A stretch of DNA of 64,000 nt from a virus. This document shows positions 4,528 through 42,568 of the stretch, one piece after another (position 1 is the first letter of the stretch; each line of letters opens with the position of its first letter). The notes under the pieces are model-generated. The model searched no databases. It was not told the origin of the DNA and saw only the letters and a program-made list of their open reading frames with translations. Both the position numbers and the translations under genes were made by a program. The stretch spans positions 10,722 to 74,721 of IMG/VR virus record IMGVR_UViG_3300008107_000046. One strand, given 5' to 3'.

Positions 4528-5328
4528 ATGCCAGCATTTAATTTTAAACAATATGGTACGTTTACTGGACCAGCAAAAAATTATGAGTTCATTGATGATG
4601 ATGCAACTTGGTGGAGTGATCTTCCAATAGATAGTTCATTTAAACTTAGTGATATTGGTGTTCTATTTTTCAATAACCAGGCAGACTATGCATATTTCCA
4701 TTTGTATGGAGTATCAACAAGCTTAGTTACTTTTGAAAAAAACAGCGGAGATTTACCTAACTTACTTGCCAATATTCAAAATACTATATTTAATGGAAAT
4801 ATAATCATTAATGGAACTACTGTAGCAAATGATAATATTGTATGTAATGCTAACGTTTCTTGTAATGGTGTATTAAATTTATCTGGAGTTGGTAATGCTG
4901 CTTCATACATGACAACTACCAGAACTATTGCTCAATCTAAAAAGTCTTTTGATATTCCTCATCCGTTAAAAGATGACCATAGACTTAGATATGTTTGTTT
5001 AGAAGGTCCTGCAGCAGAAGTTTATATCAGAGGTAAATTAGAAAATGAAAATATTATTACGTTACCAGAATATTGGAGTAGTTTAATAGATCAAGAAACA
5101 ATAGGGGTAACATTAACACCTATTGGATATCATCAAGAATTATTTGTTGAAAAAATAGAGTGGGGATCCAGAATTGTCATTAAAAATAATTCTGGTGGAG
5201 CAGTAAATTGTTATTACACAGTTACTGCAGAGAGAAAAGATACCCCCAAAAACATTCCAGAATATAAGGGGTTGACACCAAACGACTATCCAGGAGATAA
5301 TGATACTTATAATGTGAATGGACTATAG
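4528..5328 (+). CDS. Virion structural protein, paralogous C-terminal 'FDIPHP...CLEGP..EVYIRG' domain
   Basis: Beta-repeat middle section plus a C-terminal domain homologous to that of 3842-4525. Confidence 0.55.
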   Translation: MPAFNFKQYGTFTGPAKNYEFIDDDATWWSDLPIDSSFKLSDIGVLFFNNQADYAYFHLYGVSTSLVTFEKNSGDLPNLLANIQNTIFNGNIIINGTTVANDNIVCNANVSCNGVLNLSGVGNAASYMTTTRTIAQSKKSFDIPHPLKDDHRLRYVCLEGPAAEVYIRGKLENENIITLPEYWSSLIDQETIGVTLTPIGYHQELFVEKIEWGSRIVIKNNSGGAVNCYYTVTAERKDTPKNIPEYKGLTPNDYPGDNDTYNVNGL

Positions 5329-6005
5329 TGAATAAAATACATGAAATATTTCCATTGGTTGTTTATCAAGGAACAATAGATTGTCATAATGAATTTAAAG
5401 AAAAACATGTAAATTCATTGCGGGATTATTGGTTTAATGGGTATCAAAATGAAAGTCCAGAGTATTCTGGTAGAATTTTTGTTCACCATAATAAAGAATA
5501 TAAGATGTTCTTTGATGATCTTAAAAAAAATTTAGATCAATATATGGAACACTTGAATGTTGATTATAGTAAGTTAAGTTATCATATTATTAAAGCATGG
5601 GTTGGATATCATAAAGATGACGAAACACCATCTATTCAACCACATTATCATAATGAAGCAAACATTAGTTTTGTATATTATTTAAAAACCGATGAGACTT
5701 CTGATAAACTTTGCATCCAACAGCAAACAAATAGAAATGAATTTGCTGGTGGATTATTTGAAGTTGCTCAACAAAGAAATACTCTAATTGGATACAATAA
5801 GTATAACTGTAATTACTACACAGTGACACCAACTGAAGGTACTATTGTGATGTTTCCAAGTGATGTATATCACTTTACTCAAAAAACTACTGAAAGAAAA
5901 GGTGAAAGAATTGTTATTCCTGGTGATATTCGGATAACATTAAAGGAAGATAATCCAGACTATCATCAAGGGTCTACTCATCCATCTCAGTGGTTAGAAT
6001 TATAA
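5328..6005 (+). CDS. 2OG-Fe(II) oxygenase (TIGR02466-like)
   Basis: 'W....PHYH..ANISFVYYL...PTEGTIVMFPS...H...ERIVI' motif set. Confidence 0.8.
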   Translation: MNKIHEIFPLVVYQGTIDCHNEFKEKHVNSLRDYWFNGYQNESPEYSGRIFVHHNKEYKMFFDDLKKNLDQYMEHLNVDYSKLSYHIIKAWVGYHKDDETPSIQPHYHNEANISFVYYLKTDETSDKLCIQQQTNRNEFAGGLFEVAQQRNTLIGYNKYNCNYYTVTPTEGTIVMFPSDVYHFTQKTTERKGERIVIPGDIRITLKEDNPDYHQGSTHPSQWLEL

Positions 6006-8137: not shown

Positions 8138-8208
8138 GCGGGTGTGGTGTAGAGGTAACATCTGAGCCTTCCAAGCTCCAGTCACGGGTTCGATCCCCGT
8201 CACCCGCT
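8138..8208 (+). tRNA. tRNA-Gly (TCC)
   Basis: Acceptor stem GCGGGTG/CACCCGC, anticodon arm GAGC-CTTCCAA-GCTC, T-loop GGTTCGATCC. Confidence 0.93.
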
Positions 8209-8542: not shown

Positions 8543-8818
8543 ATGGCGTATAAAATCAATACTACATATTGTTGGTATGAATTGGACAATGAATATGTCA
8601 TTGTTAAAATGTATTTTATTAATCATTGTCCATTTACCTTTGATGAGTTATCATCTATTGTTAGGCAAGACCCTGAAATAATCTCAATAGCAGATAAAAA
8701 TGTAAAATTTTGCCCAGAAGATTTGTACAAGTCTTCTTTTTATTTGATAGATGAACAAGTACATCCATGTTTATTTACACTAGATTTAGAAAATCCAGAA
8801 GAGTTGCCAAATGATTGA
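8543..8818 (+). CDS. Hypothetical protein
   Basis: ATG at 8543 preceded by a strong GGAGGT RBS. Confidence 0.6.
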   Translation: MAYKINTTYCWYELDNEYVIVKMYFINHCPFTFDELSSIVRQDPEIISIADKNVKFCPEDLYKSSFYLIDEQVHPCLFTLDLENPEELPND

Positions 8819-9296
8819 AAAATTTTGTAAATATTTTGAAGGGTATTTTAACAATCAAAAACAAGCATTTTCTAATCCAAGTTCATTTGCTTTGATTGAA
8901 CTTGAACATTTTCAATTGTCAAGTAATAAATTTAGAATTATCCAAAAGTATAATATTGATCCTACTCCATATAGAAAAAATATTATCGAAATTTTTGAAG
9001 AAAATGATCACTTGTTAATTAAAAATTATAAAGATAATGAAGAATTGACTTATCTTTCTGGGTGTGATATTATTATGGAATATAAAGATAATAAATTTTT
9101 TGGTAAAAATACTTGTAAAGACTGTATTGTTAACTGGCAAGAAAAGTCTACATATTTAATTACTGAAAGTATTCTTACTGAAAATCTTTATGAAGTAGTT
9201 GATCGTGGATTTGATACTACGACTGATGAACAAATTTGGGGTTCTTTTTTTGGATCTTTTCAGTTTAATAAAATTAAATCTTTAATTGAGGAGTAA
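8811..9296 (+). CDS. cpcT: CpcT/CpeT-family phycobiliprotein (bilin) lyase
   Basis: 'G.FNNQKQA...P..FA.I', 'PYR', 'GCD', 'DRGFD....QIWGS..G.F.F' T-type lyase motifs. Confidence 0.88.
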   Translation: MIEKFCKYFEGYFNNQKQAFSNPSSFALIELEHFQLSSNKFRIIQKYNIDPTPYRKNIIEIFEENDHLLIKNYKDNEELTYLSGCDIIMEYKDNKFFGKNTCKDCIVNWQEKSTYLITESILTENLYEVVDRGFDTTTDEQIWGSFFGSFQFNKIKSLIEE

Positions 9297-9307
9297 TCCT
9301 CTATTTT

Positions 9308-9381
9308 GCCTCTGTAGCTCAGTTGGATAGAGCAGGGCTTTTGTAAAGCTCAGGTCGCAAGTTCAAGTCTTGTCGGGGGCT
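9308..9381 (+). tRNA. tRNA-Thr (TGT)
   Basis: Acceptor GCCTCTG/CGGGGGC, D-arm GCTC..GAGC, anticodon loop TTTGTAA, T-loop GTTCAAGT. Confidence 0.9.
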
Positions 9382-9400: not shown

Positions 9401-10537
9401 ATGAAAAACGAAGTAAATTTTAAATATATTGATGTCTTTGATAACAAAGATGTAACTTATGATTTGGAAAAATATCCAATGAATAAGATTATTCTTAGGG
9501 AAGTACAAAAATATTATCCAAGTGTCCAAGATCTAAGTCTTCTTCATGAACATATTGAAGGTGGAAAAGTATCTGATTTAATGTCTAAGGTAAGTAAAGA
9601 CTTAACAAAGACTGAATTTTACGAGTACTTTGATGATATTGTTAAACAATATGTTGTATCCCAAATTGATCGTGATGTTTTAATCCAAAAATTTGGAAAT
9701 GTTAGGGCAGTTATTCCAAATCAAGACAAAATTGGCGCTCTTCTTCATTTTCATCAAGGAAGATGGGTTGGTAACGGTCTTGGATTAAGAACTGTTTGGA
9801 TGGCATTTACTGATTGTTATGAAAGTAATAGTTTACAAATTCTTCCTTTAGAGGAAAGTAGAAAAATTACGATTGACGCAGTTAAAGAAAATTGGACATA
9901 TGAAAAACTCCAAGAAGAATGTACAAAATATGCATTCCCTGTAACTATTAAACCTGGACAGTTTCATTTGTTTACTCAGGAACATATTCATGGCAATTTT
10001 CCAAATCTCACTAATAAAACGAGAATTAGTATTGATGTAAGAATTCTATTGAAAGATGGTCAACCACACCGTAAATGGCCTGGTGCTTACTTTAGGAAAT
10101 TGGGAGATCTTGATATTAATTCTACACCAGTAGAAATTAAATCAGGTGAATCTACAGCAACATATGCTGAGTATGAAGGATTTAAAACAAAAGGAATTGA
10201 TCTTCATTTTCAAACTCTTACCGTAAGAAATTATTGTTCCAGAATGGGATATGTTTTCCCATATCAACATGCGGATAATGAAGGTACTCACCATGCACAT
10301 TTAGAACATTTAATTGAGCATGGAAATATTGATCATTTGTTCCTGTTTAGTATTTTTTCACTACCAGATGATCCAGATAGAAGACAATATTTAATGAATT
10401 TAGCTTTAAAGAGTAATTGTAAACTGCACTTTGCAAATGAAGAATTTGTACTTGACAATGAGAAAATGTTGAGTAAAATAGAGTACTTACGATCGTTTAC
10501 GAATGATTGGACAAATCCTGTTGATCAAGTTCTATGA
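9401..10537 (+). CDS. Fusion of a 2OG-Fe(II) enzyme (StrG/TIGR04324-like, HxG motif) and a TIGR04323-like domain
   Basis: N-domain 'LLHFHQGRW.G...VWMAFTDCYESNSL...HGN..N....TRISIDVR'. C-domain 'Q.LTVRNYC...FSIFSLP....R......AL.....LHFANE'. Confidence 0.72.
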   Translation: MKNEVNFKYIDVFDNKDVTYDLEKYPMNKIILREVQKYYPSVQDLSLLHEHIEGGKVSDLMSKVSKDLTKTEFYEYFDDIVKQYVVSQIDRDVLIQKFGNVRAVIPNQDKIGALLHFHQGRWVGNGLGLRTVWMAFTDCYESNSLQILPLEESRKITIDAVKENWTYEKLQEECTKYAFPVTIKPGQFHLFTQEHIHGNFPNLTNKTRISIDVRILLKDGQPHRKWPGAYFRKLGDLDINSTPVEIKSGESTATYAEYEGFKTKGIDLHFQTLTVRNYCSRMGYVFPYQHADNEGTHHAHLEHLIEHGNIDHLFLFSIFSLPDDPDRRQYLMNLALKSNCKLHFANEEFVLDNEKMLSKIEYLRSFTNDWTNPVDQVL

Positions 10538-10716
10538 AAATTAATCTTTGGTATTGTAATGATATGAAACAATGGCGTTGGACCTTATGTGATGATTCGA
10601 GACCTATATTAAAGCAAGAATCTGGTCAACAACCAAATCTTAGAGATGCAATGAATGATGTGGCAAATACTGTTGAATATATACTTGACAAACAAGAAAA
10701 TGGTGCTATAATTTAA
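10534..10716 (+). CDS. Hypothetical protein
   Basis: 60-aa ORF with ATGA overlap. Confidence 0.6.
   Translation: MKINLWYCNDMKQWRWTLCDDSRPILKQESGQQPNLRDAMNDVANTVEYILDKQENGAII
10685..10712 (+). promoter_or_regulatory. Sigma70 promoter with extended -10
   Basis: TTGACA (10685-90), 16-nt spacer, TGcTATAAT (-10 at 10707-12). Confidence 0.75.
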
Positions 10717-10717
10717 T

Positions 10718-10782
10718 TGCGATACTAATTCGCAGTGACCCAAAAAGTGTGACTTCAGAACCCTCTTTTAGAGGGTTTTGTT
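10718..10782 (+). ncRNA. Candidate ~65-nt small RNA
   Basis: Lies between the sigma70 promoter and an intrinsic terminator. 5' hairpin TGCGA/TCGCA. No ORF. Confidence 0.5.
10756..10782 (+). terminator. Rho-independent terminator
   Basis: Stem AACCCTCT-TTT-AGAGGGTT followed by a T-rich tail. Confidence 0.7.
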
Positions 10783-10845: not shown

Positions 10846-13800
10846 ATGGGTCTTAGTCGCTTAGATAATTTCTTAAAAAATAGCAGAGGAAATACTCTGT
10901 ATGTCGATCCATCGAGTATTGACGCTACAGACAGTATTGAAAATCAAGGTAATTCTCTTGCTCGCCCGTTTAAAACAATTCAGAGAGCACTGATAGAAGC
11001 AGCAAGATTTTCATATCAGCGAGGATTTGATAATGATAGGTTTGGTAGAACCACTATCATAGTTTATCCTGGTGATCATATTATTGATAATAGACCTGGA
11101 TGGATACCTATTCATGAAGCACCTGTAAGTGGTAGTAACTGGAGACAAAGAAGTGGTGCATTATCAAATGATTTTACTGCGTTTAATTTAGATTCTAATT
11201 TTGATGTATTTGATGATAATAATGATCTGTATAAATTTAATAGTGTTTATGGTGGAGTAATAATACCTCGTGGTACATCTTTAGTAGGACTTGATTTAAG
11301 AAAGACTAAAATCAGACCAAGATTTGTACCTGATCCTACAAATGATAATATTCAAACAACTGCTATTTTCAGAGTAACTGGTTCTTGCTATTTTTATCAG
11401 TTTACTCTTTTTGATGCCGATCCAGCAGGAACTGTTTATAATTCTTATAATAATACAAAATTTGTACCTAATTTTTCACATCATAAAGTAACTGCGTTTG
11501 AATATGCGGATGGAGCAAATCCAGTAAGTATTAATGATACATTTTTAAACTATTATACTGATAGAACTGATTTAGACTTATATTATCAAAAAATTGGACT
11601 TGCTTATGGTCCTTCAAGTGGAAGAGAAATTGCTAATGATTATCCTAGCACCGCTATAGATGTTCAAGCAAAAGTAGATGAATTTAGAATTGTTGGATCA
11701 AAAGGACAAGATGTTGGTATTACTAGCATAAGATCTGGTGATGGTGTAACTGCTAGTACCACAATTACTGTTGATTTAGAAGAAATTATTCCAGGTTTGG
11801 ATGTAGATACTCCAATCAGAATTGAAGGAGTTCCAGTATCTGGATATAATGGTCAATATGTAATTTCTACAGTAGAAACTCCAACTAGGATTACCTATAA
11901 AACTTCAGTCGCTCCTGTTAATCCTTTACCACTAATAGTAAGTGGTTCTCCTACATTAAACGTTGTAGTTGACACTGTAACATCATCTTCTCCATACATA
12001 TTCAACTGTTCTTTAAGATCAGTTTTTGGTATGTGTGGTCTTCATGCTGATGGAAGTAAATCAGATGGATTTAAATCAATGGTTGTTGCCCAATTCACAG
12101 GAATTGGACTTCAAAAAGATGATAATGCTTTTGTAAGATATAATAATTCTACAGGTGTATATGAGGATAATACTGCAGTAACGAATATTCACACAAATTC
12201 TTCTGCATTATATAAACCAACTTATGAAAGTTTCCATATTAAAGCATCTAATGATGCATTCCTACAATTAGTATCTATTTTTGCTATTGGTTATGCAAAT
12301 CACTTCTTAGTGGAAAGTGGTGGTGATCACTCTATTACTAACTCAAACTCCAACTTTGGTGCAAAGGCATTAGTTGCAAGAGGATTTAAGCGTGACGCTT
12401 TCCCAAGAGATGATACTGGATTTATAACTCACATTATACCACCAAAAGAAATTGAAACCTCAGATGTTACGATTGAATTTGATGCTATTGATGTTAATGC
12501 AACTGTTGGTGTTGGATCAACAACTAGACTGTACTTATATAACAGAACCAACCCTAATGACCCACCAAATCACATTGTAGAAGGATACAGAATTGGTGCT
12601 AAAGTAGACGATAGTTTGCATGTGTTGTTGAATGATGGTAGTGGTACTACAAGATCACTATCTGCTAGAATTATTATGCCTAATACCCAAAATACGGGTG
12701 TTTACGAATCAACTTCTAGAAAAATAGTTCATGTTGGTAGAACGACTGCAGGAATTAATAGTATTGCTGCGGATACATTAACATTTACTACTCCACATAA
12801 ATTTATTAATGGTGAAACTATTAGAATTACCAGTAGCACTGGTGAATTACCTGATGGATTAAGACATAATCAGGTTTACTATGCAATAACAAATGGTGTA
12901 AACTCTGACCAAATTCAAATTGCACAGACATTTAATGATACTGTTACTGCAGATGCAATTTCAATTAATAATAAAGGTGGTATATTAGTCGTAGAAAGTA
13001 GAGTATCTGATAAAGTTTCTGGTGATATTGGACATCCTATTCAGTTTGATAGTAATATAGGGCAATGGTATTTAACTGTAAGTGGAATTTCTACATTTAA
13101 TAATCTTACTTCTGCTATTGTTGGTCTAGGGACAAATGGATTAGGTAGTGCGACTTCCAGATCATTTATAAAAAGAACCCCAGATACTAGATCTTTATCC
13201 GATAAAATTTACAAAGCAAGATATATTATTCCAAGAGATTCTGTTGTTGTTGCTAGACCACCTCAGGAAGGATTTGTAATTCAAGAATCTAATGATAATA
13301 TTGGACCAAATGCTGCCGAAATTATAAAGTACAATAGTGTAGATTCTGTAAACTTATCTAATAGTTCTGAATTAAGAAACTATAGATTAATATCTGATGC
13401 TATTTGGGATAATTTAGTTGGTATTGCAACTTTTACTACAGAAGTTGCACATGAACTTTCTGCAGGTTCTTTAATTGAGATTAAAAATATTAAGACAACT
13501 ACCAATGTAAATGGTATTGGAAACAGTGGATTTAATGGATACCATGTAGTTTCATCAAAACCAACCAGAAGAACATTTACAGTTGGATTGACTACAAATC
13601 CTGGTACTTTTATAAACAATACTTCTGTTAGAGATGAAAATCTACCTTATTATAGTAGAGCAAAATTCAATAATACATTCGTAGTATATAAGTCTGATGA
13701 AATTCAAGAGTATGTTCCAAATGATAAAGATGGAATTTATCATTTAACCCTGCTAAGTGTTTCGAATTCACCAAATGTAGTACCATTTGATGGACTAAGA

Positions 13801-16731
13801 TTTTCTCAACCAATTAAAAATCTTTATCCTCAGTTAGATCGTGATAATTCAAATTCCGATCCACAAAAGGCAACATCGTTTGCACTACCAAATCCAATTG
13901 GTTTAGTTGAAGTTGATAACCCAGAACATAGTATTACTAGAGAAACTTTAGTTAATAAATTACATGATTTTGCAGTTGGTTTTGGACTAACTGACATTCA
14001 ATCATCATCTGGTGTTGCTCATACCTTATATACAAAATTAGATCATGGTCTTAATAGAATTACTAGAGTTGGTATTGTAAGTACTGGACGAAATTATGGA
14101 AATGGTTCAGGAACAGATCAAACTTTATACAATGCAAAGTTAGTTGGATTTGCTGGATCTACTACTGGTAAGTATGCAACTGCTAATATAAAAATTAATG
14201 CATCTGGTTCTATTACTGCTGTTAATATTGTTGATGGTGGTAGTGCATATGGCATTGGTAATACTTTAGCAATCGTTGGTGTTGCAACAACTTCCGCTCA
14301 TATTGTTGGTGTTGTAAGTGTAACTCAAATTTATAATAATATCGGTGATACCATTGCAGTAGAAGGTGTTCAGGGAGATACTTTTAAAACATATAATAAC
14401 TTATACAGAATTACAAGTATAAATGTGGGGCAAGAGAAACAAATTCAAGTTTCTTCTGCATCAACAATTACTGCAGATTATGAATTTATTGGATCATTAC
14501 CAATAATTGGTGTTAATACTAATGGATTGGTCAAAGTTAATACTGATGCTTTATTGTATACTGCAGCATATGTAACTGGAAAAACCATAGGAATTTCATC
14601 AATATCCTATCAAAAAACAACTGGTATTGCTAGTGTTACATTTTCACAACCTCATGGATATTATGTTGATAATAAAGTAAGAATTAGTGGATTTAATGAG
14701 AATTTCTTTAATGGGGATTTTATTGTTAAGAAAATTAATAGTGTAAATTCTTTTGATATTAATGTTGGTGTAAATACTATTTCCTTAGGAACTACTACAA
14801 ATACTGGTGCATATGCATTTAAACCTGGATTTGGTGCTCAAGGTGGATTTTTAAATGTTAATAATGAAAGAAGTTCTGGTAGAATTACCCCATATTATGC
14901 TGGAATTACAACTACGTTATCTATTGCATTAACAAACCCAAATACAAATACACTTACTGTTGCTGATGCTCTAAGACTTAATCTGCAGGTTGGTGATTAT
15001 CTTATTGTAGATAGTGAGATAATGAGAGTTTCTTCTACAGTAACATCTTCAACACAAATTAATGTTTTCCGTGGTTTATTTGGTAGTTCTAAAGAAAGTC
15101 ATCCACTTAATTCTGTTGTAAGAAGAGTTAAATTTATCCCAATTGAATTTAGAAGGAACTCAATTCTTCGTGCTTCTGGTCATACATTTGAGTATCTTGG
15201 ATTTGGTCCTGGTAACTATTCTACTGCTCTTCCAGAAAGACAGGATAGAAAGTTTACTGATACTGAAAGAGTACTGTCACAATCAGTAAGTGATGATGGT
15301 GGTGCTCCAATTTACACTGGTATGGATGACAGAGGTAATAATTATACTGTTAATGCTGTTACTAATTCATCTACTGGTCAAGAACTTCTTGTAAATACTC
15401 CAATACCTTCTGTTAGAGGTGAAGATTTAACATCAGACACAACTTCTGTTGGATTTGATGTACAATCAACATCAGAGTTAACAATTCAAAGATCATTAAA
15501 AGTTGAAGGTGGAAATGCTGGAACTATAATTTCGGAATTTAATGGTCCTGTTATATTCAACAATAAGTTATCATCTAATTCTGATGAAGGTATTGAAGCA
15601 AATTCCCTATATTTACAGGGTGATGCTACTATCTCTAGAAAGTACACTGTTGGTGTATCGCAACCATCTTTAGCAGGTAACCCAGGAGATATTGTATTTT
15701 ATTCTGATCCTCATCCAGGTGGAACGATTGGATGGGTTTATACAGTAGAAAATAATTGGAAAGAATTTGCACCAATTAAGAATGAAAATGGGCACTTTGT
15801 TGGTATCTTCAGTGGTTCATTTATTGGTGATGGATCTGCTCTTAGTAGTGTATCTGATATTTGGGTTTTTGATGGTGTTGGTATTTCAACGACTGCTAAT
15901 GTTGGTATCGAAACAACTTCAGCAAAACCAGGATATTCGCTTTATGCTTCTGGACCAGTATTATTTGAAAATAACGTAGAATTTAGATCTCAGTCTCTAC
16001 TTTGGAATATTACTAATGGTTTCTTAGTTAATACTGGTATTACTACATTTAATCAACAATTGAATGCTAATACATTTAGAACTGTTGGTGTTGCTACGTT
16101 CCAAAATGATATTATTGTAACTACTAATCCAGCAACAACTGGAGATACTGCTGGTAATTATTTAAAATTTGTTCAAACTGATACTGCTATCAACTCTTCG
16201 TATTTCTATGGTGGAATTCTTTGGGATGGTAATGATACTGGTAATAATGGAACTAGAGGATATATTAGAGGAGAATCTGAAGGAACTTCTGGTCAATTTG
16301 CTATAACTTTTGGTACTCAATCAACTGGTGCAAGTAATCCACAGGAAAGATTGAGACTTGATAGTGTTGGTGATGTTAATGTCACTAACAATTTAAATGT
16401 TGGTATTAATATTGTTGCTTCTGGTGAAATAACTGCCAATTCTGATGAAAGAATTAAAACTAATATTAAGACTATTGATAATGCACTTGATAAAGTTCTT
16501 CAACTTCGTGGAGTTGAGTATGATCGTACAGATATTGAAAAGCATCAAATTGGTGTTATTGCTCAAGAGGTTGAGAAAGTCTTACCAGACTTAGTTTTAG
16601 ATGGTGAGAAAAAGTCTGTTGCGTATGGTAACATGGTAGCAGTTCTTATCGAAGCGATCAAAGAGCAACAAAAACAAATTGATGCTCAAGGTAAGCAAAT
16701 CGAGGAACTTTTAAAGAGACTTGACGGATAA
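10846..16731 (+). CDS. Large tail fibre/structural protein with C-terminal peptidase S74 intramolecular chaperone
   Basis: 1961 aa. N-terminal 'LYVDP...GNSLARPFKTIQRA'. C-terminal 'SDERIKTNI..IDNALDKV.QLRGV.Y...IGVIAQEVE..LP..V' followed by a coiled coil. Confidence 0.85.
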   Translation: MGLSRLDNFLKNSRGNTLYVDPSSIDATDSIENQGNSLARPFKTIQRALIEAARFSYQRGFDNDRFGRTTIIVYPGDHIIDNRPGWIPIHEAPVSGSNWRQRSGALSNDFTAFNLDSNFDVFDDNNDLYKFNSVYGGVIIPRGTSLVGLDLRKTKIRPRFVPDPTNDNIQTTAIFRVTGSCYFYQFTLFDADPAGTVYNSYNNTKFVPNFSHHKVTAFEYADGANPVSINDTFLNYYTDRTDLDLYYQKIGLAYGPSSGREIANDYPSTAIDVQAKVDEFRIVGSKGQDVGITSIRSGDGVTASTTITVDLEEIIPGLDVDTPIRIEGVPVSGYNGQYVISTVETPTRITYKTSVAPVNPLPLIVSGSPTLNVVVDTVTSSSPYIFNCSLRSVFGMCGLHADGSKSDGFKSMVVAQFTGIGLQKDDNAFVRYNNSTGVYEDNTAVTNIHTNSSALYKPTYESFHIKASNDAFLQLVSIFAIGYANHFLVESGGDHSITNSNSNFGAKALVARGFKRDAFPRDDTGFITHIIPPKEIETSDVTIEFDAIDVNATVGVGSTTRLYLYNRTNPNDPPNHIVEGYRIGAKVDDSLHVLLNDGSGTTRSLSARIIMPNTQNTGVYESTSRKIVHVGRTTAGINSIAADTLTFTTPHKFINGETIRITSSTGELPDGLRHNQVYYAITNGVNSDQIQIAQTFNDTVTADAISINNKGGILVVESRVSDKVSGDIGHPIQFDSNIGQWYLTVSGISTFNNLTSAIVGLGTNGLGSATSRSFIKRTPDTRSLSDKIYKARYIIPRDSVVVARPPQEGFVIQESNDNIGPNAAEIIKYNSVDSVNLSNSSELRNYRLISDAIWDNLVGIATFTTEVAHELSAGSLIEIKNIKTTTNVNGIGNSGFNGYHVVSSKPTRRTFTVGLTTNPGTFINNTSVRDENLPYYSRAKFNNTFVVYKSDEIQEYVPNDKDGIYHLTLLSVSNSPNVVPFDGLRFSQPIKNLYPQLDRDNSNSDPQKATSFALPNPIGLVEVDNPEHSITRETLVNKLHDFAVGFGLTDIQSSSGVAHTLYTKLDHGLNRITRVGIVSTGRNYGNGSGTDQTLYNAKLVGFAGSTTGKYATANIKINASGSITAVNIVDGGSAYGIGNTLAIVGVATTSAHIVGVVSVTQIYNNIGDTIAVEGVQGDTFKTYNNLYRITSINVGQEKQIQVSSASTITADYEFIGSLPIIGVNTNGLVKVNTDALLYTAAYVTGKTIGISSISYQKTTGIASVTFSQPHGYYVDNKVRISGFNENFFNGDFIVKKINSVNSFDINVGVNTISLGTTTNTGAYAFKPGFGAQGGFLNVNNERSSGRITPYYAGITTTLSIALTNPNTNTLTVADALRLNLQVGDYLIVDSEIMRVSSTVTSSTQINVFRGLFGSSKESHPLNSVVRRVKFIPIEFRRNSILRASGHTFEYLGFGPGNYSTALPERQDRKFTDTERVLSQSVSDDGGAPIYTGMDDRGNNYTVNAVTNSSTGQELLVNTPIPSVRGEDLTSDTTSVGFDVQSTSELTIQRSLKVEGGNAGTIISEFNGPVIFNNKLSSNSDEGIEANSLYLQGDATISRKYTVGVSQPSLAGNPGDIVFYSDPHPGGTIGWVYTVENNWKEFAPIKNENGHFVGIFSGSFIGDGSALSSVSDIWVFDGVGISTTANVGIETTSAKPGYSLYASGPVLFENNVEFRSQSLLWNITNGFLVNTGITTFNQQLNANTFRTVGVATFQNDIIVTTNPATTGDTAGNYLKFVQTDTAINSSYFYGGILWDGNDTGNNGTRGYIRGESEGTSGQFAITFGTQSTGASNPQERLRLDSVGDVNVTNNLNVGINIVASGEITANSDERIKTNIKTIDNALDKVLQLRGVEYDRTDIEKHQIGVIAQEVEKVLPDLVLDGEKKSVAYGNMVAVLIEAIKEQQKQIDAQGKQIEELLKRLDG

Positions 16732-16805: not shown

Positions 16806-18047
16806 ATGAGTTCCATGTTCCAACTTCGCCCCCATCAGAAATCTGCTCTTGAGGCGATGCTGCTCCATGCAAAAGGTATTGTCGTTGCTCCTACAGGCGC
16901 AGGTAAGAGCATCATCGCTATCTATGATACTATTCGCCATTTCGCTTTGGGAAACCAAACTGTGGTTGTGGTTGCTCCTAGACTGCTTCTTGCTCAGCAG
17001 TTGTGTTCTGAGTTCATGGAGCACATCACTGATGCTTCTGTAATGCATGTTCACTCTGCTAAAGACTGCAATTACTTTGCTACAACTAAACCTGATGAGA
17101 TTGGCGATTGGTGTGAAAATACTCAAGGTAACAAACTGATTTTTACAACTTATAATTCTCTTCAGCGCATCGTTGACGCAGGTATTCATGTCAATGCTAT
17201 CTATTTTGACGAAGCACACAATTCTGTTAAAAAATCATTTTTTGATGGCACACGCATTCTATCTAAGTATGCTAACCATTGCTATTTCTTTACTGCAACT
17301 CCGAAATATTCTTCTACTCCGAAAAAACCAGGAATGAATGATCATGAAGTTTATGGTAAGATCATCTTTAATGTTCCTGCTCCTGAACTAATTGCCAATG
17401 GTTCCATTCTTCCTCCTAAAATCAATGCTATGAATATTGGTTCTGCTCGTGATAAGGATCAGAATGCTGCTGAGAGGGATTGTATGACCCTCCTGGATAC
17501 TATTCTGAATGAAGATCATATGGACAAAGTTCTTGTTGCTGCTCCTAACACCAAGGTTTTAATTCGTATGATTGCTGAGACTGATTTCATGACAGAAGTT
17601 CAGTCTTATGGTTATGATGTTCTTTGGATCACTGCTAAGTATGGTGCATTTATCAACAACACAAAAATCAGTCGTGAAGAGTTCTTTAACAAGATCTCTG
17701 ACTTTGGTAAAGATCCTAACAAAAAGTTCATTGTCCTTCATTACTCCATCCTTAGTGAAGGTATTTCTGTGCCTGGTCTTACTTCTCTTGTTATGATGCG
17801 TCAGATGAATGTGATTGAGATGTGTCAGTCTATCGGTCGCGTTATCCGTCTTCATCTTGATGACATCAAAGCAATTCAGAACGGTCAAATCAAGGCGGGT
17901 GACTTGAATTCATATACTAAATCTTTTGGTCTAATCCATGTTCCTGTTTACAGCAACACTGGTATTTCCACAGTGCGTCGTCTTCAATCTGTTGTCGATA
18001 CTGTGTTTGTTGAGGGTCAACCTGCTATTTCAGTAATTAAAAAATGA
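16806..18047 (+). CDS. Superfamily 2 (DEAH-box) helicase
   Basis: Motifs Q (LRPHQ), I (APTGAGKS), II (DEAH), III (TAT), VI (QSIGRVIR). Confidence 0.9.
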   Translation: MSSMFQLRPHQKSALEAMLLHAKGIVVAPTGAGKSIIAIYDTIRHFALGNQTVVVVAPRLLLAQQLCSEFMEHITDASVMHVHSAKDCNYFATTKPDEIGDWCENTQGNKLIFTTYNSLQRIVDAGIHVNAIYFDEAHNSVKKSFFDGTRILSKYANHCYFFTATPKYSSTPKKPGMNDHEVYGKIIFNVPAPELIANGSILPPKINAMNIGSARDKDQNAAERDCMTLLDTILNEDHMDKVLVAAPNTKVLIRMIAETDFMTEVQSYGYDVLWITAKYGAFINNTKISREEFFNKISDFGKDPNKKFIVLHYSILSEGISVPGLTSLVMMRQMNVIEMCQSIGRVIRLHLDDIKAIQNGQIKAGDLNSYTKSFGLIHVPVYSNTGISTVRRLQSVVDTVFVEGQPAISVIKK

Positions 18048-18481
18048 AATACGAAGTTATACGAGATCAATTTTATGAGTGTTTGGATCTGACCTGGGAT
18101 GTTATCAACACTCAAGTTGAAAAAGAAATTCAAAATAATACATGTAGAATTATAGGTAACGATGAAGAAAAGACTATTCTTCTTTTAGATAATGAGAATT
18201 TTCATCCAATCATATCTAAAATGTATGCTATAATGAGATATAAGTATCGTCTTACGACTTTACATATATACACTTCACAAAATAATGCACAGACATTTGG
18301 AAGGCATTGTGATCAGTCAGACGTTTTAATTGTTCAATCAATAGGTAAAATGTCTTATAAATTTGATGATGGTGAATTAATCGTATTAAAACCTGGAGAT
18401 GGGGTTTACATCCCAAAAGGAATGTATCATGATCCTATTCCTATCGAACCTAGAGTGTCATTAAGTTTTTCTTGGAATTAA
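18044..18481 (+). CDS. Minimal JmjC/cupin 2OG-Fe(II) oxygenase
   Basis: 'FGRHCDQSDVLIVQ..GKM.Y...LKPGD.VYIPKGMYH'. Confidence 0.8.
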   Translation: MKYEVIRDQFYECLDLTWDVINTQVEKEIQNNTCRIIGNDEEKTILLLDNENFHPIISKMYAIMRYKYRLTTLHIYTSQNNAQTFGRHCDQSDVLIVQSIGKMSYKFDDGELIVLKPGDGVYIPKGMYHDPIPIEPRVSLSFSWN

Positions 18482-19066: not shown

Positions 19067-19256
19067 TATTGCTCGTTCTGAATTGATGCATTATAGACTG
19101 CAGGCATTCCTAAGGGAATTTAACTGCTCAGACATTGAATATATTGGGTTGCGTAATTCTGAACATTGGTATAAAATTGATGGGCATGAGGTAAATGTAA
19201 AGGATATTGAGGAATTTGATCAAATTGATGATGATGAACAAACAGTTACTTATTAA
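19053..19256 (+). CDS. Hypothetical protein
   Basis: Likely start at ATG 19053 within the track ORF 18963-19256. Confidence 0.5.
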   Translation: MENFSIARSELMHYRLQAFLREFNCSDIEYIGLRNSEHWYKIDGHEVNVKDIEEFDQIDDDEQTVTY

Positions 19257-19719
19257 TGATAAAAATCTAATAAATTATTTTTTAAATTTATTAGATTTTA
19301 TCCAAAATTATCCTCAAGTTTATAGGGATGTGACAAACCATTGCTTGTCTCCAAACTGTTTTGCATCAAATAATCTTTTAAATCTAATAACCGATAATCA
19401 ATTTGTAAATAAAATCAACTTTATTCTGGGAGAATGTGAGAAACATATTCCAGATAAGGTTGATTATTTTTATATTCATATGGTTGACTATAAAAATGGT
19501 GGGGATATGTTAATACATAAACATGATCACAATGAAGATTATTCGTTTATTTTATATTTGAATGACTGTGATGATGGGTATACAACTTTATATACTGATA
19601 GACCTATCAGAGTAAAACCAGAAACTGGTAAAATTCTTATATTTTCTTCTGATGTTTATCATTCAGCAACTTCTTCAAATAGTAAAAAAGTATTAGTCGG
19701 AGGATTAAAAATAAAATGA
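19231..19719 (+). CDS. 2OG-Fe(II) oxygenase
   Basis: 'Y..GG....HKHD..EDYSFILYLND...P..GKILIFSS...H'. Start position approximate. Confidence 0.75.
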   Translation: MMNKQLLINDKNLINYFLNLLDFIQNYPQVYRDVTNHCLSPNCFASNNLLNLITDNQFVNKINFILGECEKHIPDKVDYFYIHMVDYKNGGDMLIHKHDHNEDYSFILYLNDCDDGYTTLYTDRPIRVKPETGKILIFSSDVYHSATSSNSKKVLVGGLKIK

Positions 19720-20518: not shown

Positions 20519-21055
20519 ATGAAGAATTATTTTGAAGCATTTACAATACCATATTGGCAAACTAAAGTAATAGATTGGGAATACAAGAAAAAATCTTTGC
20601 TATCATTACACTATAATAATAAACATAATATGTGTGGTGGTGATGAACAATATACTGATTATAATAGTAAGAACTCTTATCATTCTCAAGTACAATCTAT
20701 TTTATTAGATGATCTTTATTCTGCTCGTAAAGCTTTAAACTTAGAACACCATACGCTCAGAGTGACCACTGCATGGTTTCAAATGTATGAGCAATATCAC
20801 CATCATCCAATTCATAATCATGGTATAAATGGATTTAGTTCTGTTTGTTATATTGAATATGACCATAATGAACATGAACCTACAAGATTTGTATGTCCAT
20901 TTAATAGTTATATTAATAATGATATGATAGAATTTATACCGAATGATATTGAAGAAGGTTCTATAGTATTCTTTCCTAGTAATGTACCTCACTATGTCGC
21001 ACCAAATAAATCAACAAAACCTAGATTAATATTATCCTTTAATATAACTTACTAA
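20519..21055 (+). CDS. 2OG-Fe(II) oxygenase (TIGR02466-like)
   Basis: 'WFQ.Y....H.IHNHG...FSSVCY...EG.IVFFPS...H.V.PN.S..PRLILSFN'. Confidence 0.85.
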   Translation: MKNYFEAFTIPYWQTKVIDWEYKKKSLLSLHYNNKHNMCGGDEQYTDYNSKNSYHSQVQSILLDDLYSARKALNLEHHTLRVTTAWFQMYEQYHHHPIHNHGINGFSSVCYIEYDHNEHEPTRFVCPFNSYINNDMIEFIPNDIEEGSIVFFPSNVPHYVAPNKSTKPRLILSFNITY

Positions 21056-21309
21056 TGATATATACCCAACAATATATTTTTTACTTATTAGTATTTTCTT
21101 TCATCGCTTATTTTGTAGTGACAGATGAGAGTATTGCTGCATTAGTTATTTTAAGTATAAAAATTTTAAGAAATAATATAGAAAGATTAATTTGGATGAT
21201 TAGATTTCATCCTTTAGTAACTACAAACAAAATTATGCAGTGGTATATGATGCGTAAATATATGAAGGAGGCAGAAAAATTGCAAAAAGAACTATTTAAA
21301 GATGATTAG
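21055..21309 (+). CDS. Small membrane protein
   Basis: Hydrophobic N-terminal segment. Confidence 0.55.
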   Translation: MIYTQQYIFYLLVFSFIAYFVVTDESIAALVILSIKILRNNIERLIWMIRFHPLVTTNKIMQWYMMRKYMKEAEKLQKELFKDD

Positions 21310-22120
21310 AATACCTCACGAAGTTCAGTTACACATAACACATTCATGCAATTTGACATGTGAAGGATGTACTCACTATAGTAATCATGGACATTCTGGA
21401 ATGTTATCTTTGGAAGAAGGATCAGAATGGATGGATAGGTGGAATAAAAGAATAATTCCAGAAAGATTTACTATTCTTGGTGGAGAACCAGCATTGAATA
21501 AAGATCTTACTAAATTCATTTATCTTGCAAAAGAAAAATGGCCTAATTCATATTTGGAATTAATTTCCAATGGATTTCATTTACACAAACACCCAGATCT
21601 ACCAAAGGCTTTGATTGATACCCAAACTGTTATTGGTATTTCTGTTCATTCTAGAGAACATCCAGATTACATTGAGAAATTTAAACCAGTTTATAAATTG
21701 GCAAAAAAATGGTTATTGATGGGTGTAAAGGTCGAAATGAGACATTCATCTCTTGATTGGTTAAGGCAATATCAAGGGTATGGGGATAATATGCTCCCCT
21801 ATGAAGACAATAATCCAGAATCAAGTTGGAAAAACTGTGTTTCTAGAATGTGTATACAACTACATGAAGGTAAAATCTGGAAATGTCCAGGTTTAGCGTA
21901 TTTACCTATGCAAGCAGAAAAATATAATCTTTCTGAAAAATGGGATAAATATCTGAAATATGAACCATTGCATCATGATTGTTCTGATGAAGAACTTGTT
22001 GAATTTTTTAATAGGAAATGGGAAACGTACTGTGATATGTGTCCAGCAAATAAAGAACATTTCAAACCATCTGCAGATCCATTATTACCAGTTAGTTATT
22101 GGAAAAAACTCAACAAATAA
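21302..22120 (+). CDS. Radical SAM enzyme (paralogue of 26962-27801)
   Basis: CNLTCEGC (CxxxCxxC), GGEP, SNG, additional C-terminal cysteines. Confidence 0.88.
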   Translation: MIRIPHEVQLHITHSCNLTCEGCTHYSNHGHSGMLSLEEGSEWMDRWNKRIIPERFTILGGEPALNKDLTKFIYLAKEKWPNSYLELISNGFHLHKHPDLPKALIDTQTVIGISVHSREHPDYIEKFKPVYKLAKKWLLMGVKVEMRHSSLDWLRQYQGYGDNMLPYEDNNPESSWKNCVSRMCIQLHEGKIWKCPGLAYLPMQAEKYNLSEKWDKYLKYEPLHHDCSDEELVEFFNRKWETYCDMCPANKEHFKPSADPLLPVSYWKKLNK

Positions 22121-27831: not shown

Positions 27832-29031
27832 ATGAATAAACCTCATTGTATAGTTCCTTGGATATATTTTTTTGCGGAGGCAAATGGTGATGTAATGCCA
27901 TGTTGTGTTAATAATACTTTTCTTGGAAACATACAAGTTAATGATTACAAAAAGGTGTGGAATTCGCATCAAATGAAAAAATTTAGACGTAAAATGTTAG
28001 ACGGTGAGTTGCCAAAAACATGTGAAATATGCATAGAAAATAAGACTTTAACAGATGATGTTAATAACACATATAATCTTAAAGATTATTATAATAATTT
28101 TTTTAAATCTTCATTTGATGAAATTGAAAAAATTACTAATGAGGATGGATCTATTAAAGAAGATGAAATAAAATTTAAAGCGTTTTCATTCAAAGTTAGT
28201 AATAAATGTAATTTTAAATGTAGAATGTGTAATGCATACAATAGTTCTTTGATAGCAGGTGGTGTAATTGAAAATGGTGAGTTCTATAAATCTTTTGTTA
28301 AAGAAAACATTAATGATTTAGAATTAATAGAATTTATAGGTGGTGAATCATTTTTAATGGAAGAAACTTATGATATTTTACAGTATTTAATTGATAGAAA
28401 CAAACCACATCCACATCTACATTTTAATACTAACATGTCGGTATTGAGTTTGGGTGATAGAAACATTTTTGATTATTTGGAAAAATTAGATATCTCTAAA
28501 GTAGAAATAGTTGCTAGTGTTGATGAACTTGATGAGAGAGCAGAATATATTAGAAAAGGATGTAACTGGAAATCTATAGAAAAAAATCTAAAAAAACTTT
28601 CAAAAAAAGACTTTAAAACTAACACTAATATTGTAGCAAGTTGTTATAATGTTTTTAGATTACCTGAAATTATTACTCGTTTAGTTGATATTGGTCATAT
28701 AAATGAAAAGCATAACTATGAAAATTTTATGTTCAATCCAGTAATTGGAGATTGTGATATAATTTTACTAAGCGATGAATTTAAAAATAAAATAATGGAT
28801 AAATTGTATAATTTTATTGCTGAATATAATAAGACCTATAATGTTGATATTTCTTATAAGTTTAAGATTATCATAGGTAAATTAAAACAAGAATTGCCAG
28901 ATAATATTAATGAATTAAGAGTTCAATTCTTATATGAAAATCACAAAAAAGATAAAAAACGTGGTGAAAAGTTACTAAAAACTATACCAGAAATGAAAGA
29001 TGTAGTTTATTTGTTGAAAAATGGAAACTGA
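27832..29031 (+). CDS. Radical SAM enzyme with N-terminal SPASM/twitch-like domain
   Basis: 'C..PW...GDV.PCC...C..C' followed by CNFKCRMC, GGE, NTN. Confidence 0.85.
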   Translation: MNKPHCIVPWIYFFAEANGDVMPCCVNNTFLGNIQVNDYKKVWNSHQMKKFRRKMLDGELPKTCEICIENKTLTDDVNNTYNLKDYYNNFFKSSFDEIEKITNEDGSIKEDEIKFKAFSFKVSNKCNFKCRMCNAYNSSLIAGGVIENGEFYKSFVKENINDLELIEFIGGESFLMEETYDILQYLIDRNKPHPHLHFNTNMSVLSLGDRNIFDYLEKLDISKVEIVASVDELDERAEYIRKGCNWKSIEKNLKKLSKKDFKTNTNIVASCYNVFRLPEIITRLVDIGHINEKHNYENFMFNPVIGDCDIILLSDEFKNKIMDKLYNFIAEYNKTYNVDISYKFKIIIGKLKQELPDNINELRVQFLYENHKKDKKRGEKLLKTIPEMKDVVYLLKNGN

Positions 29032-31315: not shown

Positions 31316-31570
31316 ATGAGTACAGTGGAATTGAGAAGACGTAAAGATAAAACTCGCATAATTAAGTGGGTTAGCGCCAGCACAATACTCATCGCAATGG
31401 TGTTTCATGTGCTGGGGCTAACCCCTTGGAATAGCATCCTACAACTAATTGGTGCTTCAGGGTGGACGTATGTTGGATTTAAATGGAAAGAACGTTCAAT
31501 TATAATGAACTTTCTTCCACAATTTTTTATTATTATACCTGGATTGTTTTACTTATTTTTTATAAAATGA
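31316..31570 (+). CDS. Small three-helix membrane protein (DUF6552-like)
   Basis: 'KW.....L......LG..PWN......G..GW..VG..W..RS.I..N'. Confidence 0.6.
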   Translation: MSTVELRRRKDKTRIIKWVSASTILIAMVFHVLGLTPWNSILQLIGASGWTYVGFKWKERSIIMNFLPQFFIIIPGLFYLFFIK

Positions 31571-34357: not shown

Positions 34358-34362
34358 AGATT

Positions 34363-34986: not shown

Positions 34987-34987
34987 A

Positions 34988-36065: not shown

Positions 36066-36066
36066 T

Positions 36067-41961: not shown

Positions 41962-41962
41962 G

Positions 41963-42532: not shown

Positions 42533-42568
42533 ATATGTTATAATTTTTATTAATAGGTTGAAATTATT

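What the first reader, a model, noticed from the sequence alone, without database searches (positions are those of the whole stretch)
9401..10537. Candidate phage non-heme-iron halogenase: HxG iron motif in a two-domain fusion
Seen: the N-domain reads LLHFHQGRWVG, with H118-Q119-G120 at nt 9752-9760, a distal H197 (HGN) and R208 (TRIS). As I recall the StrG/TIGR04324 family pattern (LLP.HAD.WSG), the W and G anchor the register and put Gly where the iron-binding Asp normally is. Established: replacing that carboxylate with Ala or Gly opens the halide site in Fe/2OG halogenases (SyrB2 HQA, BesD and WelO5 HxG). The C-terminal ~130 aa resemble TIGR04323, which is normally a separate neighbouring gene. 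The cyanophage halogenase I know of (VirX1) is flavin-dependent. Inference: a virus-encoded radical halogenase acting on a sugar or nucleotide-like substrate, or another non-hydroxylating chemistry. Caveat: H116 could instead provide an HxH triad.
Basis: partly seen in the sequence, partly recalled or inferred. Interest (0 to 1): 0.8.

Follow-up and report, generated by a model that had tools for sequence, protein, structure and literature searches.

The report
Phage sugar oxygenase with remodelled iron site
A lake cyanophage-like virus carries a two-domain iron/2-oxoglutarate enzyme in which glycine replaces the usual iron-binding aspartate, always paired with one glutamine beside the second histidine; it could be an oxygenase with a rebuilt iron site or a new halogenase, and only an assay can decide.

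Summary
ORF 9401-10537 (+) encodes 378 aa. The N-domain is a PhyH-type Fe/2OG fold (AF2 pLDDT 95; PtlH Z 14.4). The C-domain passes the TIGR04323 cut-off. H118-Q119-G120, H197 and R208 are invariant in 95 homologues and in every viral locus read. G120 sits in the Asp column of the wider H-x-D-x-W family. H116 is not conserved, so an HxH triad is rejected.

New points:
- G120 always occurs with Q193, four residues before the distal His (23/23). HxD relatives have a small residue there (91/101).
- The two states switched together at least five times on a supported tree.
- Q193 is the position of the relocated Glu ligand in HygX (HxG...E-x3-H) and of a small Ser in the halogenase CytC3.
- AspH is a natural HxG hydroxylase, so HxG alone does not prove halogenation.
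- The C-domain has a serine-recombinase-like fold.

The gene is mostly viral: 264 IMG/VR contigs against 10 of about 185,000 bacterial species genomes. It usually lies between cpeT and a giant tail fibre gene. A bacterial copy lies in a polysaccharide cluster.

My odds: oxygenase with Gln filling the Asp site 45%, radical halogenase 30%, other 25%. Earlier agents of this scan reported the same family on other phage DNA.

The parts
9401..10537 (+). Whole gene, 378 aa: fused Fe/2OG oxygenase domain plus TIGR04323 domain
   Evidence: ORF list. NCBIfam and Pfam hits. AF2 model with pLDDT 95.3 and pTM 0.91.
9401..10120 (+). N-domain, residues 1-240: PhyH-type double-stranded beta-helix Fe/2OG fold
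   Evidence: VIA-align gives PtlH Z 14.4, rmsd 3.5, 209 aligned, with GriE, FtmOx1, AviO1 and EvdO1 at Z 12-13.5. Foldseek's top hits are CurA Hal, ThoJ, GriE and SyrB2.
9752..9760 (+). H118-Q119-G120: proximal iron His, with Gly in the Asp column
   Evidence: Invariant in 96 of 96 sequences. The wider family has H-x-D here. The profile aligns it to PtlH H-Q-D. All four Gly codons are used.
9977..9979 (+). Q193, at H-4 of the distal His: covaries with G120
   Evidence: G with Q in 23 of 23. D-type sequences have P/S/A/T/N/G here in 91 of 101. The two positions switch together on the tree. This is the position of the HygX Glu ligand.
9989..9991 (+). H197: distal iron His (HGN)
   Evidence: Invariant. 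Aligned to the distal His of PtlH, CytC3, PhyH and AndA.
10022..10030 (+). R208-I209-S210: RxS, the likely 2OG C5-carboxylate clamp
   Evidence: R208 is invariant in the whole family and S210 nearly so. Aligned to the RMS of PtlH. The binding role is inferred.
10148..10534 (+). C-domain, residues about 250-378: TIGR04323 / LIC12192 family, serine-recombinase-like alpha/beta fold
   Evidence: TIGR04323 at 56.4 bits, above the 55-bit cut-off, and 59.1 bits in the six-frame search. Domain model pLDDT 86.5. Ten serine recombinases at Z 8.1-11.6, next class at Z 6 or below. Foldseek top hits are the TP901-1 integrase domain and a resolvase.
9308..9381 (+). tRNA-Thr(TGT) 20 nt upstream, after a terminator-like hairpin at 9288-9301
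   Evidence: ARAGORN. Terminator scan.
10534..10716 (+). 60-aa ORF overlapping the stop codon (ATGA), followed by a terminator-like hairpin at 10756-10780
   Evidence: ORF list. Scan. No family hit.
10846..16731 (+). 1961-aa tail-fibre-type protein, the conserved downstream neighbour
   Evidence: Peptidase_S74 chaperone domain at residues 1866-1918. A homologue lies downstream in 50 of 80 viral loci.
8811..9296 (+). CpeT-family gene, the conserved upstream neighbour
   Evidence: Pfam CpeT, 2.9e-25. The most frequent upstream neighbour family is a ~135-aa ORF in 51 of 80 viral loci. That this family is the CpeT homologue is inferred from position and size, not scanned.

Best explanation
The gene encodes a 2-oxoglutarate-dependent non-haem iron enzyme of a sugar-pathway family (a sister group of TIGR04324) fused to its usual partner domain (TIGR04323). 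Its iron site has been rebuilt. The Asp of the His-x-Asp...His triad is replaced by Gly120. The side chain of Gln193, four residues before the distal His197, fills the vacated space. There it either ligates Fe(II) through its amide oxygen (a 2-His-1-Gln site) or holds a water ligand. 2OG binds via R208/S210. The enzyme oxidises a C-H bond of a sugar or sugar nucleotide by hydroxylation or a related non-halogenating outcome. In the phage it acts alone, on a host-made envelope sugar precursor or on a glycan linked to the neighbouring tail fibre. Shown here: the fold, the ligand columns, the G-Q coupling and the gene context. Inferred: the geometry of Q193, the substrate and the chemistry.
For: The fold and the two His ligands are secure.
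G120 and Q193 are coupled. Gly goes with Gln in 23 of 23 cases, while Asp goes with a small residue (P/S/A/T/N/G) in 91 of 101. That is the pattern of a size-compensating swap.
In IQ-TREE, D/non-Q forms (P0108, P0117, P0120, P0103, P0107) sit singly inside the G/Q clade with 86-98% UFBoot, apart from the weakly supported P0106/P0107 pair (69%). The two states have therefore replaced each other repeatedly within one two-domain architecture.
HygX, a PhyH-type sugar oxygenase, has HxG...E-x3-H with the acid relocated to exactly H-4 (PMC13374393). A side chain of this length at this position can therefore reach the metal.
The halogenase CytC3 has Ser at H-4, which leaves room for halide.
AspH shows that a natural HxG...H enzyme can hydroxylate (PMC10947486).
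Bacterial fused HxG copies lie in surface-polysaccharide loci. In Roseivirga these encode GDP-mannose dehydratase, an epimerase, fucosyltransferase-like proteins, a sulfotransferase, an ABC-2 exporter and a GT2. In an alphaproteobacterium they encode RmlC and Bac_transf.
Against: Gln193 is never Glu in more than 100 sequences, although CAA/CAG is one base from GAA/GAG. A simple relocated carboxylate would be expected to appear as Glu at least sometimes.
Asp+Gln forms exist (P0110 and viral L093/L094 with HCD...Q-x3-H). In these, Gln cannot be a fourth protein ligand if O2 is to bind. This suggests Q193 may instead be a second-sphere hydrogen-bond donor to an anionic ligand.
A neutral Gln leaves the site one negative charge short, which a halide would supply.
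I could not read model coordinates, so the Q193-to-metal distance is untested.
A natural 2-His-1-Gln site in a 2OG oxygenase has no precedent that I know of.
Confidence: 0.45

Rival explanations
1. It is a radical Fe/2OG halogenase. With Gly120 the Asp site is open and binds chloride or bromide. The NH2 of Gln193 hydrogen-bonds the halide. The ferryl abstracts a sugar hydrogen and the halogen rebounds, giving a halogenated sugar.
For: The invariant HxG lies in the Asp column. H116 is not conserved, and no invariant acidic residue exists in the N-domain. Gln is strictly kept and never becomes Glu despite a one-base path, which fits a hydrogen-bond donor to an anion. Asp+Gln forms show Q193 is compatible with an anionic ligand already in that site. 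Foldseek's best E-values are to CurA Hal, and SyrB2 and CytC3 are also among the hits. Most characterised HxG/A enzymes are halogenases, and mining by this motif has found real ones (PMC11186838).
Against: In CytC3 the H-4 residue is a small Ser, whereas here a long side chain fills that space, as in HygX. AspH and HygX are natural HxG enzymes that do not halogenate. By Z-score the closest structures are hydroxylases (PtlH 14.4), not halogenases. TIGR01762 scores 16.7 bits against a cut-off of 226. Repeated G/Q to D/small switches within one architecture would each mean a change of product. I know of no natural halogenated polysaccharide sugar. This phage is found in lake water, where chloride is low; this last point is weak evidence.
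Confidence: 0.3
2. The third ligand comes from the substrate. An acidic sugar (uronic, nonulosonic or Kdo-type) or a phosphate binds iron in the vacated site, or the site runs as a bare 2-His centre with water, as in AspH.
For: AspH works with two His ligands only. The family is tied to surface-carbohydrate loci, where acidic sugars are common. Q193 could hydrogen-bond such a ligand. No conserved protein carboxylate is available.
Against: No acidic-sugar pathway genes were seen next to the bacterial copies examined; those loci point to GDP-fucose or rhamnose-type sugars. This reading does not explain why the D-type relatives with the same architecture do without it.
Confidence: 0.15
3. It is a non-catalytic or non-2OG protein: a decayed oxygenase kept as a binding module, for example for the neighbouring tail fibre.
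For: The triad is incomplete. The gene has a conserved position next to a fibre gene.
Against: H118, H197, R208, S210 and the glycine-rich loop are invariant over sequences down to 27% identity. Synonymous codon turnover at these positions shows selection on an active site.
Confidence: 0.05

Closest known systems
TIGR04324 'sporadic carbohydrate cluster 2OG-Fe(II) oxygenase' with TIGR04323 'LIC12192 family' partner (both uncharacterised)
   Same: It is the best family match for both halves. The motif frame H-x-[D/G]-x-W-x-G ... HG-x-x-x-N-x-T-x-x-R-x-S-x-D is shared. The bacterial copies have a carbohydrate-locus context.
   Different: The N-domain scores 86 bits, below the 150-bit cut-off. 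Strict members (208-269 bits) are unfused proteins of about 245 aa with HSD. Here the two families are one polypeptide and Asp is Gly.
HygX, hygromycin B orthoester synthase (PDB 4XCA/4XCB), and its relatives AviO1 and EvdO1/2
   Same: It is a PhyH-type Fe/2OG enzyme acting on sugars. It has an HxG motif plus a compensating residue exactly four residues before the distal His (PMC13374393). AviO1 and EvdO1 are structural neighbours at Z 12.2-12.5.
   Different: HygX has Glu at H-4, while this family has an invariant Gln. There is no detectable sequence match to HygX. HygX has no TIGR04323 domain.
SyrB2 / CytC3 / CurA Hal Fe/2OG halogenases
   Same: They share the PhyH-type fold and the absence of the carboxylate at H+2. 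They are among the top Foldseek hits. There is a weak sequence match around the distal His.
   Different: They have Ala rather than Gly at H+2 and Ser rather than Gln at H-4. They act on carrier-protein-bound substrates. TIGR01762 scores 16.7 bits against a cut-off of 226.
PtlH, 1-deoxypentalenic acid 11-beta-hydroxylase (PDB 2RDN)
   Same: It is the closest solved structure (Z 14.4) and the only significant sequence-profile hit (8e-08). F-H-Q-D-G aligns with F-H-Q-G.
   Different: PtlH keeps the Asp and has Ala at H-4. It is a terpenoid hydroxylase with no second domain.
AspH, human aspartate/asparagine beta-hydroxylase
   Same: It is a natural HxG...H 2OG enzyme with two protein ligands, and it hydroxylates (PMC10947486).
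   Different: It belongs to an unrelated branch of the superfamily and has a protein substrate. It was not among the structural neighbours listed.
VirX1 / PrnA-type flavin-dependent halogenases of cyanophages
   Same: They are virus-encoded and sit in the same variable region. In S-SRM01, the nearest isolate by helicase, a 'tryptophan halogenase' gene lies among the tail-fibre genes.
   Different: They have a different fold, cofactor and chemistry, and are not homologous.

Membership tests
Fe(II)/2OG oxygenase superfamily, PhyH-like branch | Double-stranded beta-helix fold | tested here: met
   AF2 pLDDT 95.3. PtlH Z 14.4 with 209 residues aligned, and many PhyH-type enzymes at Z above 12. Pfam PhyH at 32.8 bits, above the 22-bit cut-off.
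Fe(II)/2OG oxygenase superfamily, PhyH-like branch | Proximal and distal iron His | tested here: met
   H118 and H197 are invariant in 113 family members and align to the two His of PtlH.
Fe(II)/2OG oxygenase superfamily, PhyH-like branch | Asp or Glu two residues after the proximal His | tested here: not met
   Gly120 is invariant.
Fe(II)/2OG oxygenase superfamily, PhyH-like branch | Basic residue binding the 2OG C5 carboxylate | tested here: met
   R208 is invariant and S210 nearly so. It aligns to the R-M-S of PtlH. The binding role itself is inferred.
TIGR04324 (SpoChoClust_2) | Score at or above the curated cut-off of 150 bits | tested here: not met
   86.2 bits and 87.3 bits in the six-frame search. 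Strict members score 208-269 bits.
TIGR04324 (SpoChoClust_2) | H-x-D iron motif | tested here: not met
   HQG here, against HSD in P0151, P0156 and P0177.
TIGR04323 (SpoChoClust_1, LIC12192 family) | Score at or above the curated cut-off of 55 bits | tested here: met
   56.4 bits at residues 255-363 and 59.1 bits.
Fe/2OG radical halogenases | HxG/A in place of HxD/E | tested here: met
Fe/2OG radical halogenases | An open, halide-occupied coordination site not filled by another side chain | tested here: inconclusive
   Q193 covaries with G120 at the position where HygX places a Glu ligand and CytC3 a small Ser. No model coordinates could be read.
Fe/2OG radical halogenases | Halide-dependent formation of a halogenated product | not testable with these tools
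   This needs an enzyme assay.
TIGR01762 SyrB2-type chlorinating enzyme | Score at or above the cut-off of 226.3 bits | tested here: not met
   16.7 bits, covering residues 177-209 only.
HygX-type relocated triad (HxG...E-x3-H) | Gly at H+2 together with an acidic residue at H-4 of the distal His | tested here: not met
   Gly is present, but H-4 is an invariant Gln and never Glu. The motif is taken from PMC13374393.
Serine recombinase catalytic domain (C-domain only) | Resolvase-like alpha/beta fold | tested here: met
   Z 11.6 to the phiC31-type integrase N-domain, and ten recombinases at Z 8.1 or above.
Serine recombinase catalytic domain (C-domain only) | Nucleophilic Ser after strand 1, and sequence-family membership | tested here: inconclusive
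   No Resolvase family hit in Pfam at E up to 1. The invariant residues are Q271, Y278, S317, R328, H343, N346, E347 and P373, with no invariant Ser near strand 1. No residue-level structural alignment was available.

The most novel reading that the evidence does not exclude
This is the first virus-encoded Fe/2OG radical halogenase, and the first one acting on a sugar. Hundreds of lake and marine cyanophage-type viruses, and a few bacteria, would then chlorinate or brominate a cell-surface or fibre-linked sugar, with Gln193 as the halide-holding residue.
Probability: 0.3. Interest if true: 0.85.

Novelty: new variant of a known kind. Interest (0 to 1): 0.6.

Why it matters
Both leading readings would be new. 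One is a natural 2-His-1-Gln (or Gln-supported 2-His) site in a 2OG oxygenase, which would extend the short list of facial-triad variants (AspH, HygX). The other is a halogenase, which would add a viral, sugar-directed class to radical halogenases, enzymes of interest for C-H functionalisation.

The family is uncharacterised; a full-text search for its accession found no paper. It is abundant in uncultured cyanophage-type viruses. It holds a fixed place beside a tail-fibre gene. It offers natural G/Q and D/small pairs of close relatives, which are ready-made controls for an experiment.

The result also warns that mining for halogenases by HxG alone will pick up this family.

Tried and rejected
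- HxH triad through H116: rejected. H116 is His in only 3 of 96 sequences.
- Another conserved carboxylate: none is invariant in the N-domain. E194 is E or H among close homologues but G, D or A in other HxG members. D212 is shared with the HxD forms.
- PHROGs: no family hit.
- tblastn of the protein and of the homologue P0029 against 50,697 GenBank phage records: no match.
- The search for related loci with alignment A4 failed because it had no conserved stretch. P0103 gave no viral locus.
- Sequence-profile searches of the PDB did not reach HygX, AspH, BesD, WelO5 or AdaV, so the comparison with HygX rests on the published motif.
- C-domain profile against the PDB by sequence: nothing.
- Other ORFs of the window against NCBIfam for TIGR04325/04326-type partners: none found.
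- Sequencing runs: no RNA holder was listed, so there is no information on expression.
- Model coordinates are not exposed by the tools, so the Q193-to-iron geometry could not be measured.

Full report
WHAT IS THERE. The ORF 9401-10537 (+) encodes 378 aa. It follows a terminator-like hairpin (9288-9301) and tRNA-Thr (9308-9381). A 60-aa ORF overlaps its stop codon, and a terminator-like hairpin follows at 10756-10780.

The window is part of a 74.7-kb IMG/VR virus record estimated to be 34% complete. Its genes are those of a T4-like cyanomyovirus: a gp9/10-like baseplate protein, CpeT, a DEAD-box helicase, several small 2OG oxygenases, radical SAM/SPASM proteins, a carbamoyltransferase, an RNA ligase, and a 1961-aa fibre protein with a Peptidase_S74 chaperone domain. 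The nearest isolate by helicase is the freshwater Synechococcus phage S-SRM01, at 57% identity. Near-identical DNA is held by lake and freshwater metagenomes from about 15 studies.

FAMILY AND FOLD. NCBIfam gives TIGR04324 for residues 29-215 at 86.2 bits, below the 150-bit cut-off. It gives TIGR04323 for residues 255-363 at 56.4 bits, above the 55-bit cut-off. Pfam gives PhyH.

An AlphaFold2 model built on 61 homologues has pLDDT 95.3 and pTM 0.91. Its N-domain is a PhyH-type jelly roll. PtlH is the closest solved structure (Z 14.4, rmsd 3.5, 209 aligned). GriE, FtmOx1, OkaE, EctD, AviO1 and EvdO1 follow at Z 12-13.5. Foldseek's best E-values go to CurA Hal, ThoJ, GriE and SyrB2. Fold comparison therefore places it among both hydroxylases and halogenases and does not discriminate between them.

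THE IRON MOTIF. Among the query and 95 homologues of 32-96% identity, H118, Q119, G120, H197, R208 and S210 are invariant. H116 is L/A/P/Q and rarely His. No acidic residue of the N-domain is invariant.

An index-free HMMER search of 1.84 billion representatives with the N-domain found 296 relatives. In a MAFFT alignment the wider family reads F-H-x-D-x-W-x-G-H/D/N-G with the same spacing as F-H-Q-G-R-W-V-G-N-G. A profile of 113 family members aligns this H-x-D and the distal His with the F-H-Q-D-G and H-K-S of PtlH at E 8e-08. By my recollection of the PtlH structure paper these are its iron ligands His137, Asp139 and His226, which are SEQRES positions 140, 142 and 229 in the alignment. So G120 does occupy the Asp column.

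Across 86 loci all four Gly codons occur at position 120 and both Gln codons at position 193. GGT/GGC is one base from Asp and CAA/CAG is one base from Glu. The amino acids are therefore held by selection.

THE COUPLED GLUTAMINE. In the representative set, every sequence with Gly at 120 has Gln at 193, four residues before the distal His (23 of 23). This holds whether the motif is HQG, HTG or HNG. Sequences with Asp have P, S, A, T, N or G there in 91 of 101 cases, Gln in 4 and Glu in 1.

I built an IQ-TREE tree with columns 119, 120 and 193 masked. It places single D/non-Q sequences inside the G/Q clade. P0108 (HQD, M) sits within nodes of 96-98% UFBoot. P0117 (HCD, P) pairs with P0097 at 90%. 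P0110 (HND, Q) pairs with P0105 at 86%. P0103 and P0120 lie within nodes of 86-94%. P0107 (HSD, E) also pairs with a G/Q sequence (P0106), but only at 69%. That makes at least five coupled switches, most simply read as reversions from G/Q to D/small. All of these proteins keep the same two-domain architecture.

WHAT THE COUPLING MEANS. Position H-4 is next to the carboxylate site, and three known enzymes show this.
- HygX is a PhyH-type sugar oxygenase with 'H-X-G ... E-X3-H'. The acid is relocated to H-4, and the enzyme catalyses oxidative cyclisation, not halogenation (PMC13374393).
- In the halogenase CytC3, the alignment puts a small Ser opposite Q193.
- PtlH has Ala there.

D+small against G+Gln is therefore a volume-compensating swap. 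Something the length of Glu now fills the space the Asp left. I read this as favouring Gln193 sitting in the old carboxylate position, either as a neutral ligand or holding a water, over an empty halide pocket. AspH independently shows that a natural HXG...H enzyme can be a hydroxylase (PMC10947486).

Three points count against this reading.
- Gln is never Glu.
- Asp+Gln forms exist, including intact genes on two viral contigs (L093 and L094, HCD ... Q-E-R-V-H). In these, Gln cannot be a fourth protein ligand.
- A neutral Gln leaves the site short of one negative charge, which a halide would supply.

These points keep the halogenase reading alive. I could not inspect model coordinates, so the geometry is inferred.

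THE SECOND DOMAIN. Modelled alone (25 sequences, pLDDT 86.5), residues 238-378 form a three-layer alpha/beta domain. Its only strong structural neighbours are serine-recombinase catalytic domains: Z 11.6 to a Streptomyces temperate-phage serine recombinase N-terminal domain (4bqq) and ten recombinases at Z 8.1 or above, against Z 6 or below for everything else. Foldseek's top hits are the TP901-1 integrase domain and a resolvase.

There is no sequence-level match to recombinases. The invariant residues (Q271, Y278, S317, R328, H343, N346, E347, P373) do not include a Ser after strand 1. I take it as a recombinase-like fold reused for another role, either substrate binding or oligomerisation. 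That role is unknown.

Fusion is not special to the HxG forms. 47 of 101 D-type and 19 of 23 G-type representatives carry the domain. Strict TIGR04324 members (208-269 bits) are unfused HSD proteins of about 245 aa. All fused forms, D or G, score 76-98 bits.

DISTRIBUTION AND CONTEXT. IMG/VR holds 264 contigs encoding a relative. The best 80 are 38-97% identical, and every one that covers the motif reads HQG. Among genomes of about 185,000 prokaryotic species only 10 have a relative, at 27-37% identity. These are Roseivirga (HQG), Planctomycetota (HNG or HTG) and Alpha- and other Pseudomonadota (HTG), all with Q-x3-H.

In Roseivirga the gene lies among an ABC-2 exporter pair, a sulfotransferase, two fucosyltransferase-like genes, GDP-mannose 4,6-dehydratase, an epimerase, a GT2 and a GDSL esterase. 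In an alphaproteobacterium it lies next to Bac_transf and near RmlC. The link to carbohydrate pathways is therefore real.

In the viruses the gene has no sugar-pathway neighbours. In about 50 of 80 loci it lies between a ~135-aa upstream family, which I take by position and size to be the CpeT homologue (it was not scanned), and the giant fibre gene. In a different virus (L093) the D+Q form again lies beside a fibre-like protein with an autoproteolytic chaperone domain and near a B12-radical SAM gene. The substrate in the phage must be host-made or linked to the fibre. This is inference.

VERDICT. It is a selected, family-wide change of an iron ligand. My odds are:
- 45%: oxygenase with Gln193 filling the Asp site
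- 30%: radical halogenase with Gln193 as halide holder
- 15%: substrate-completed or bare 2-His site
- 5%: non-catalytic
- 5%: unassigned

A full-text search for the family accession found no paper, and the halogenase-mining papers I read do not mention it. Earlier agents of this scan reported the same family on other phage DNA and reached a similar verdict. I took the HygX lead from one of them and checked it in the literature. I derived the G-Q coupling from my own data.

Noticed in passing
window 10685-10782: A perfect sigma-70-type promoter (TTGACA, 16 nt, TG-TATAAT; 12 of 12 matches) at 10685-10712 leads straight into a terminator-like hairpin at 10756-10780, between the 60-aa ORF and the fibre gene.
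   Followed up: partly
window 10112-10534 (C-domain): The TIGR04323 / LIC12192 'sporadic carbohydrate cluster protein' domain has a serine-recombinase catalytic-domain-like fold (Z 11.6) but no conserved nucleophilic Ser. Its fold and role appear undescribed.
   Followed up: partly
window 5328-6005, 18044-18481, 19207-19719, 20519-21055, 43710-44915: Five further 2OG-Fe(II) oxygenase or JmjC-cupin genes lie in the same window. Their iron motifs were not examined.
   Followed up: no
window 21302-22120, 27832-29031, 45747-47033: There are three radical SAM genes. Two have an N-terminal SPASM/twitch domain placed before the radical SAM core; one of these matches NF033640 'twitch domain-containing radical SAM protein' at 255 bits.
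   Followed up: no
window 31483-36717 and 38390-39757: A low-GC block (25-28% GC) holds seven ORFs of 207-455 aa with no Pfam or NCBIfam match, flanking a NodU/CmcH-type carbamoyltransferase at 36969-38393. It may be a sugar-modification island.
   Followed up: partly
L092 (Synechococcus phage S-SRM01, record 41680-43137): In the nearest isolate, a flavin-type 'tryptophan halogenase' gene is annotated between the tail fibre and adhesin-tip genes, in the region that corresponds to where this window carries the HxG Fe/2OG gene.
   Followed up: no
L093 / L094 7001-8125: Two viral contigs (105 kb and 83 kb) carry a fused relative with both Asp and Gln (HCD ... Q-E-R-V-H). It lies beside a Peptidase_G2 fibre-like protein, a B12-radical SAM, a CobS-like AAA protein, DUF2201 and ThyX. 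It is a natural intermediate state for experiments.
   Followed up: partly
L077 7956-9131: A contig labelled as a giant-virus MAG (GVMAG-S-1059906-5) carries a 38% identical HQG copy.
   Followed up: no
P0194: A 1603-aa metagenomic protein matches the query segment 113-137 (the HQG-RWVGNGLG loop) in 13 separate stretches. It may be a repeat protein or a low-complexity artefact.
   Followed up: no
window 8138-8208 and 9308-9381: tRNA-Gly(TCC) and tRNA-Thr(TGT) flank the cpeT gene just upstream of the finding.
   Followed up: no
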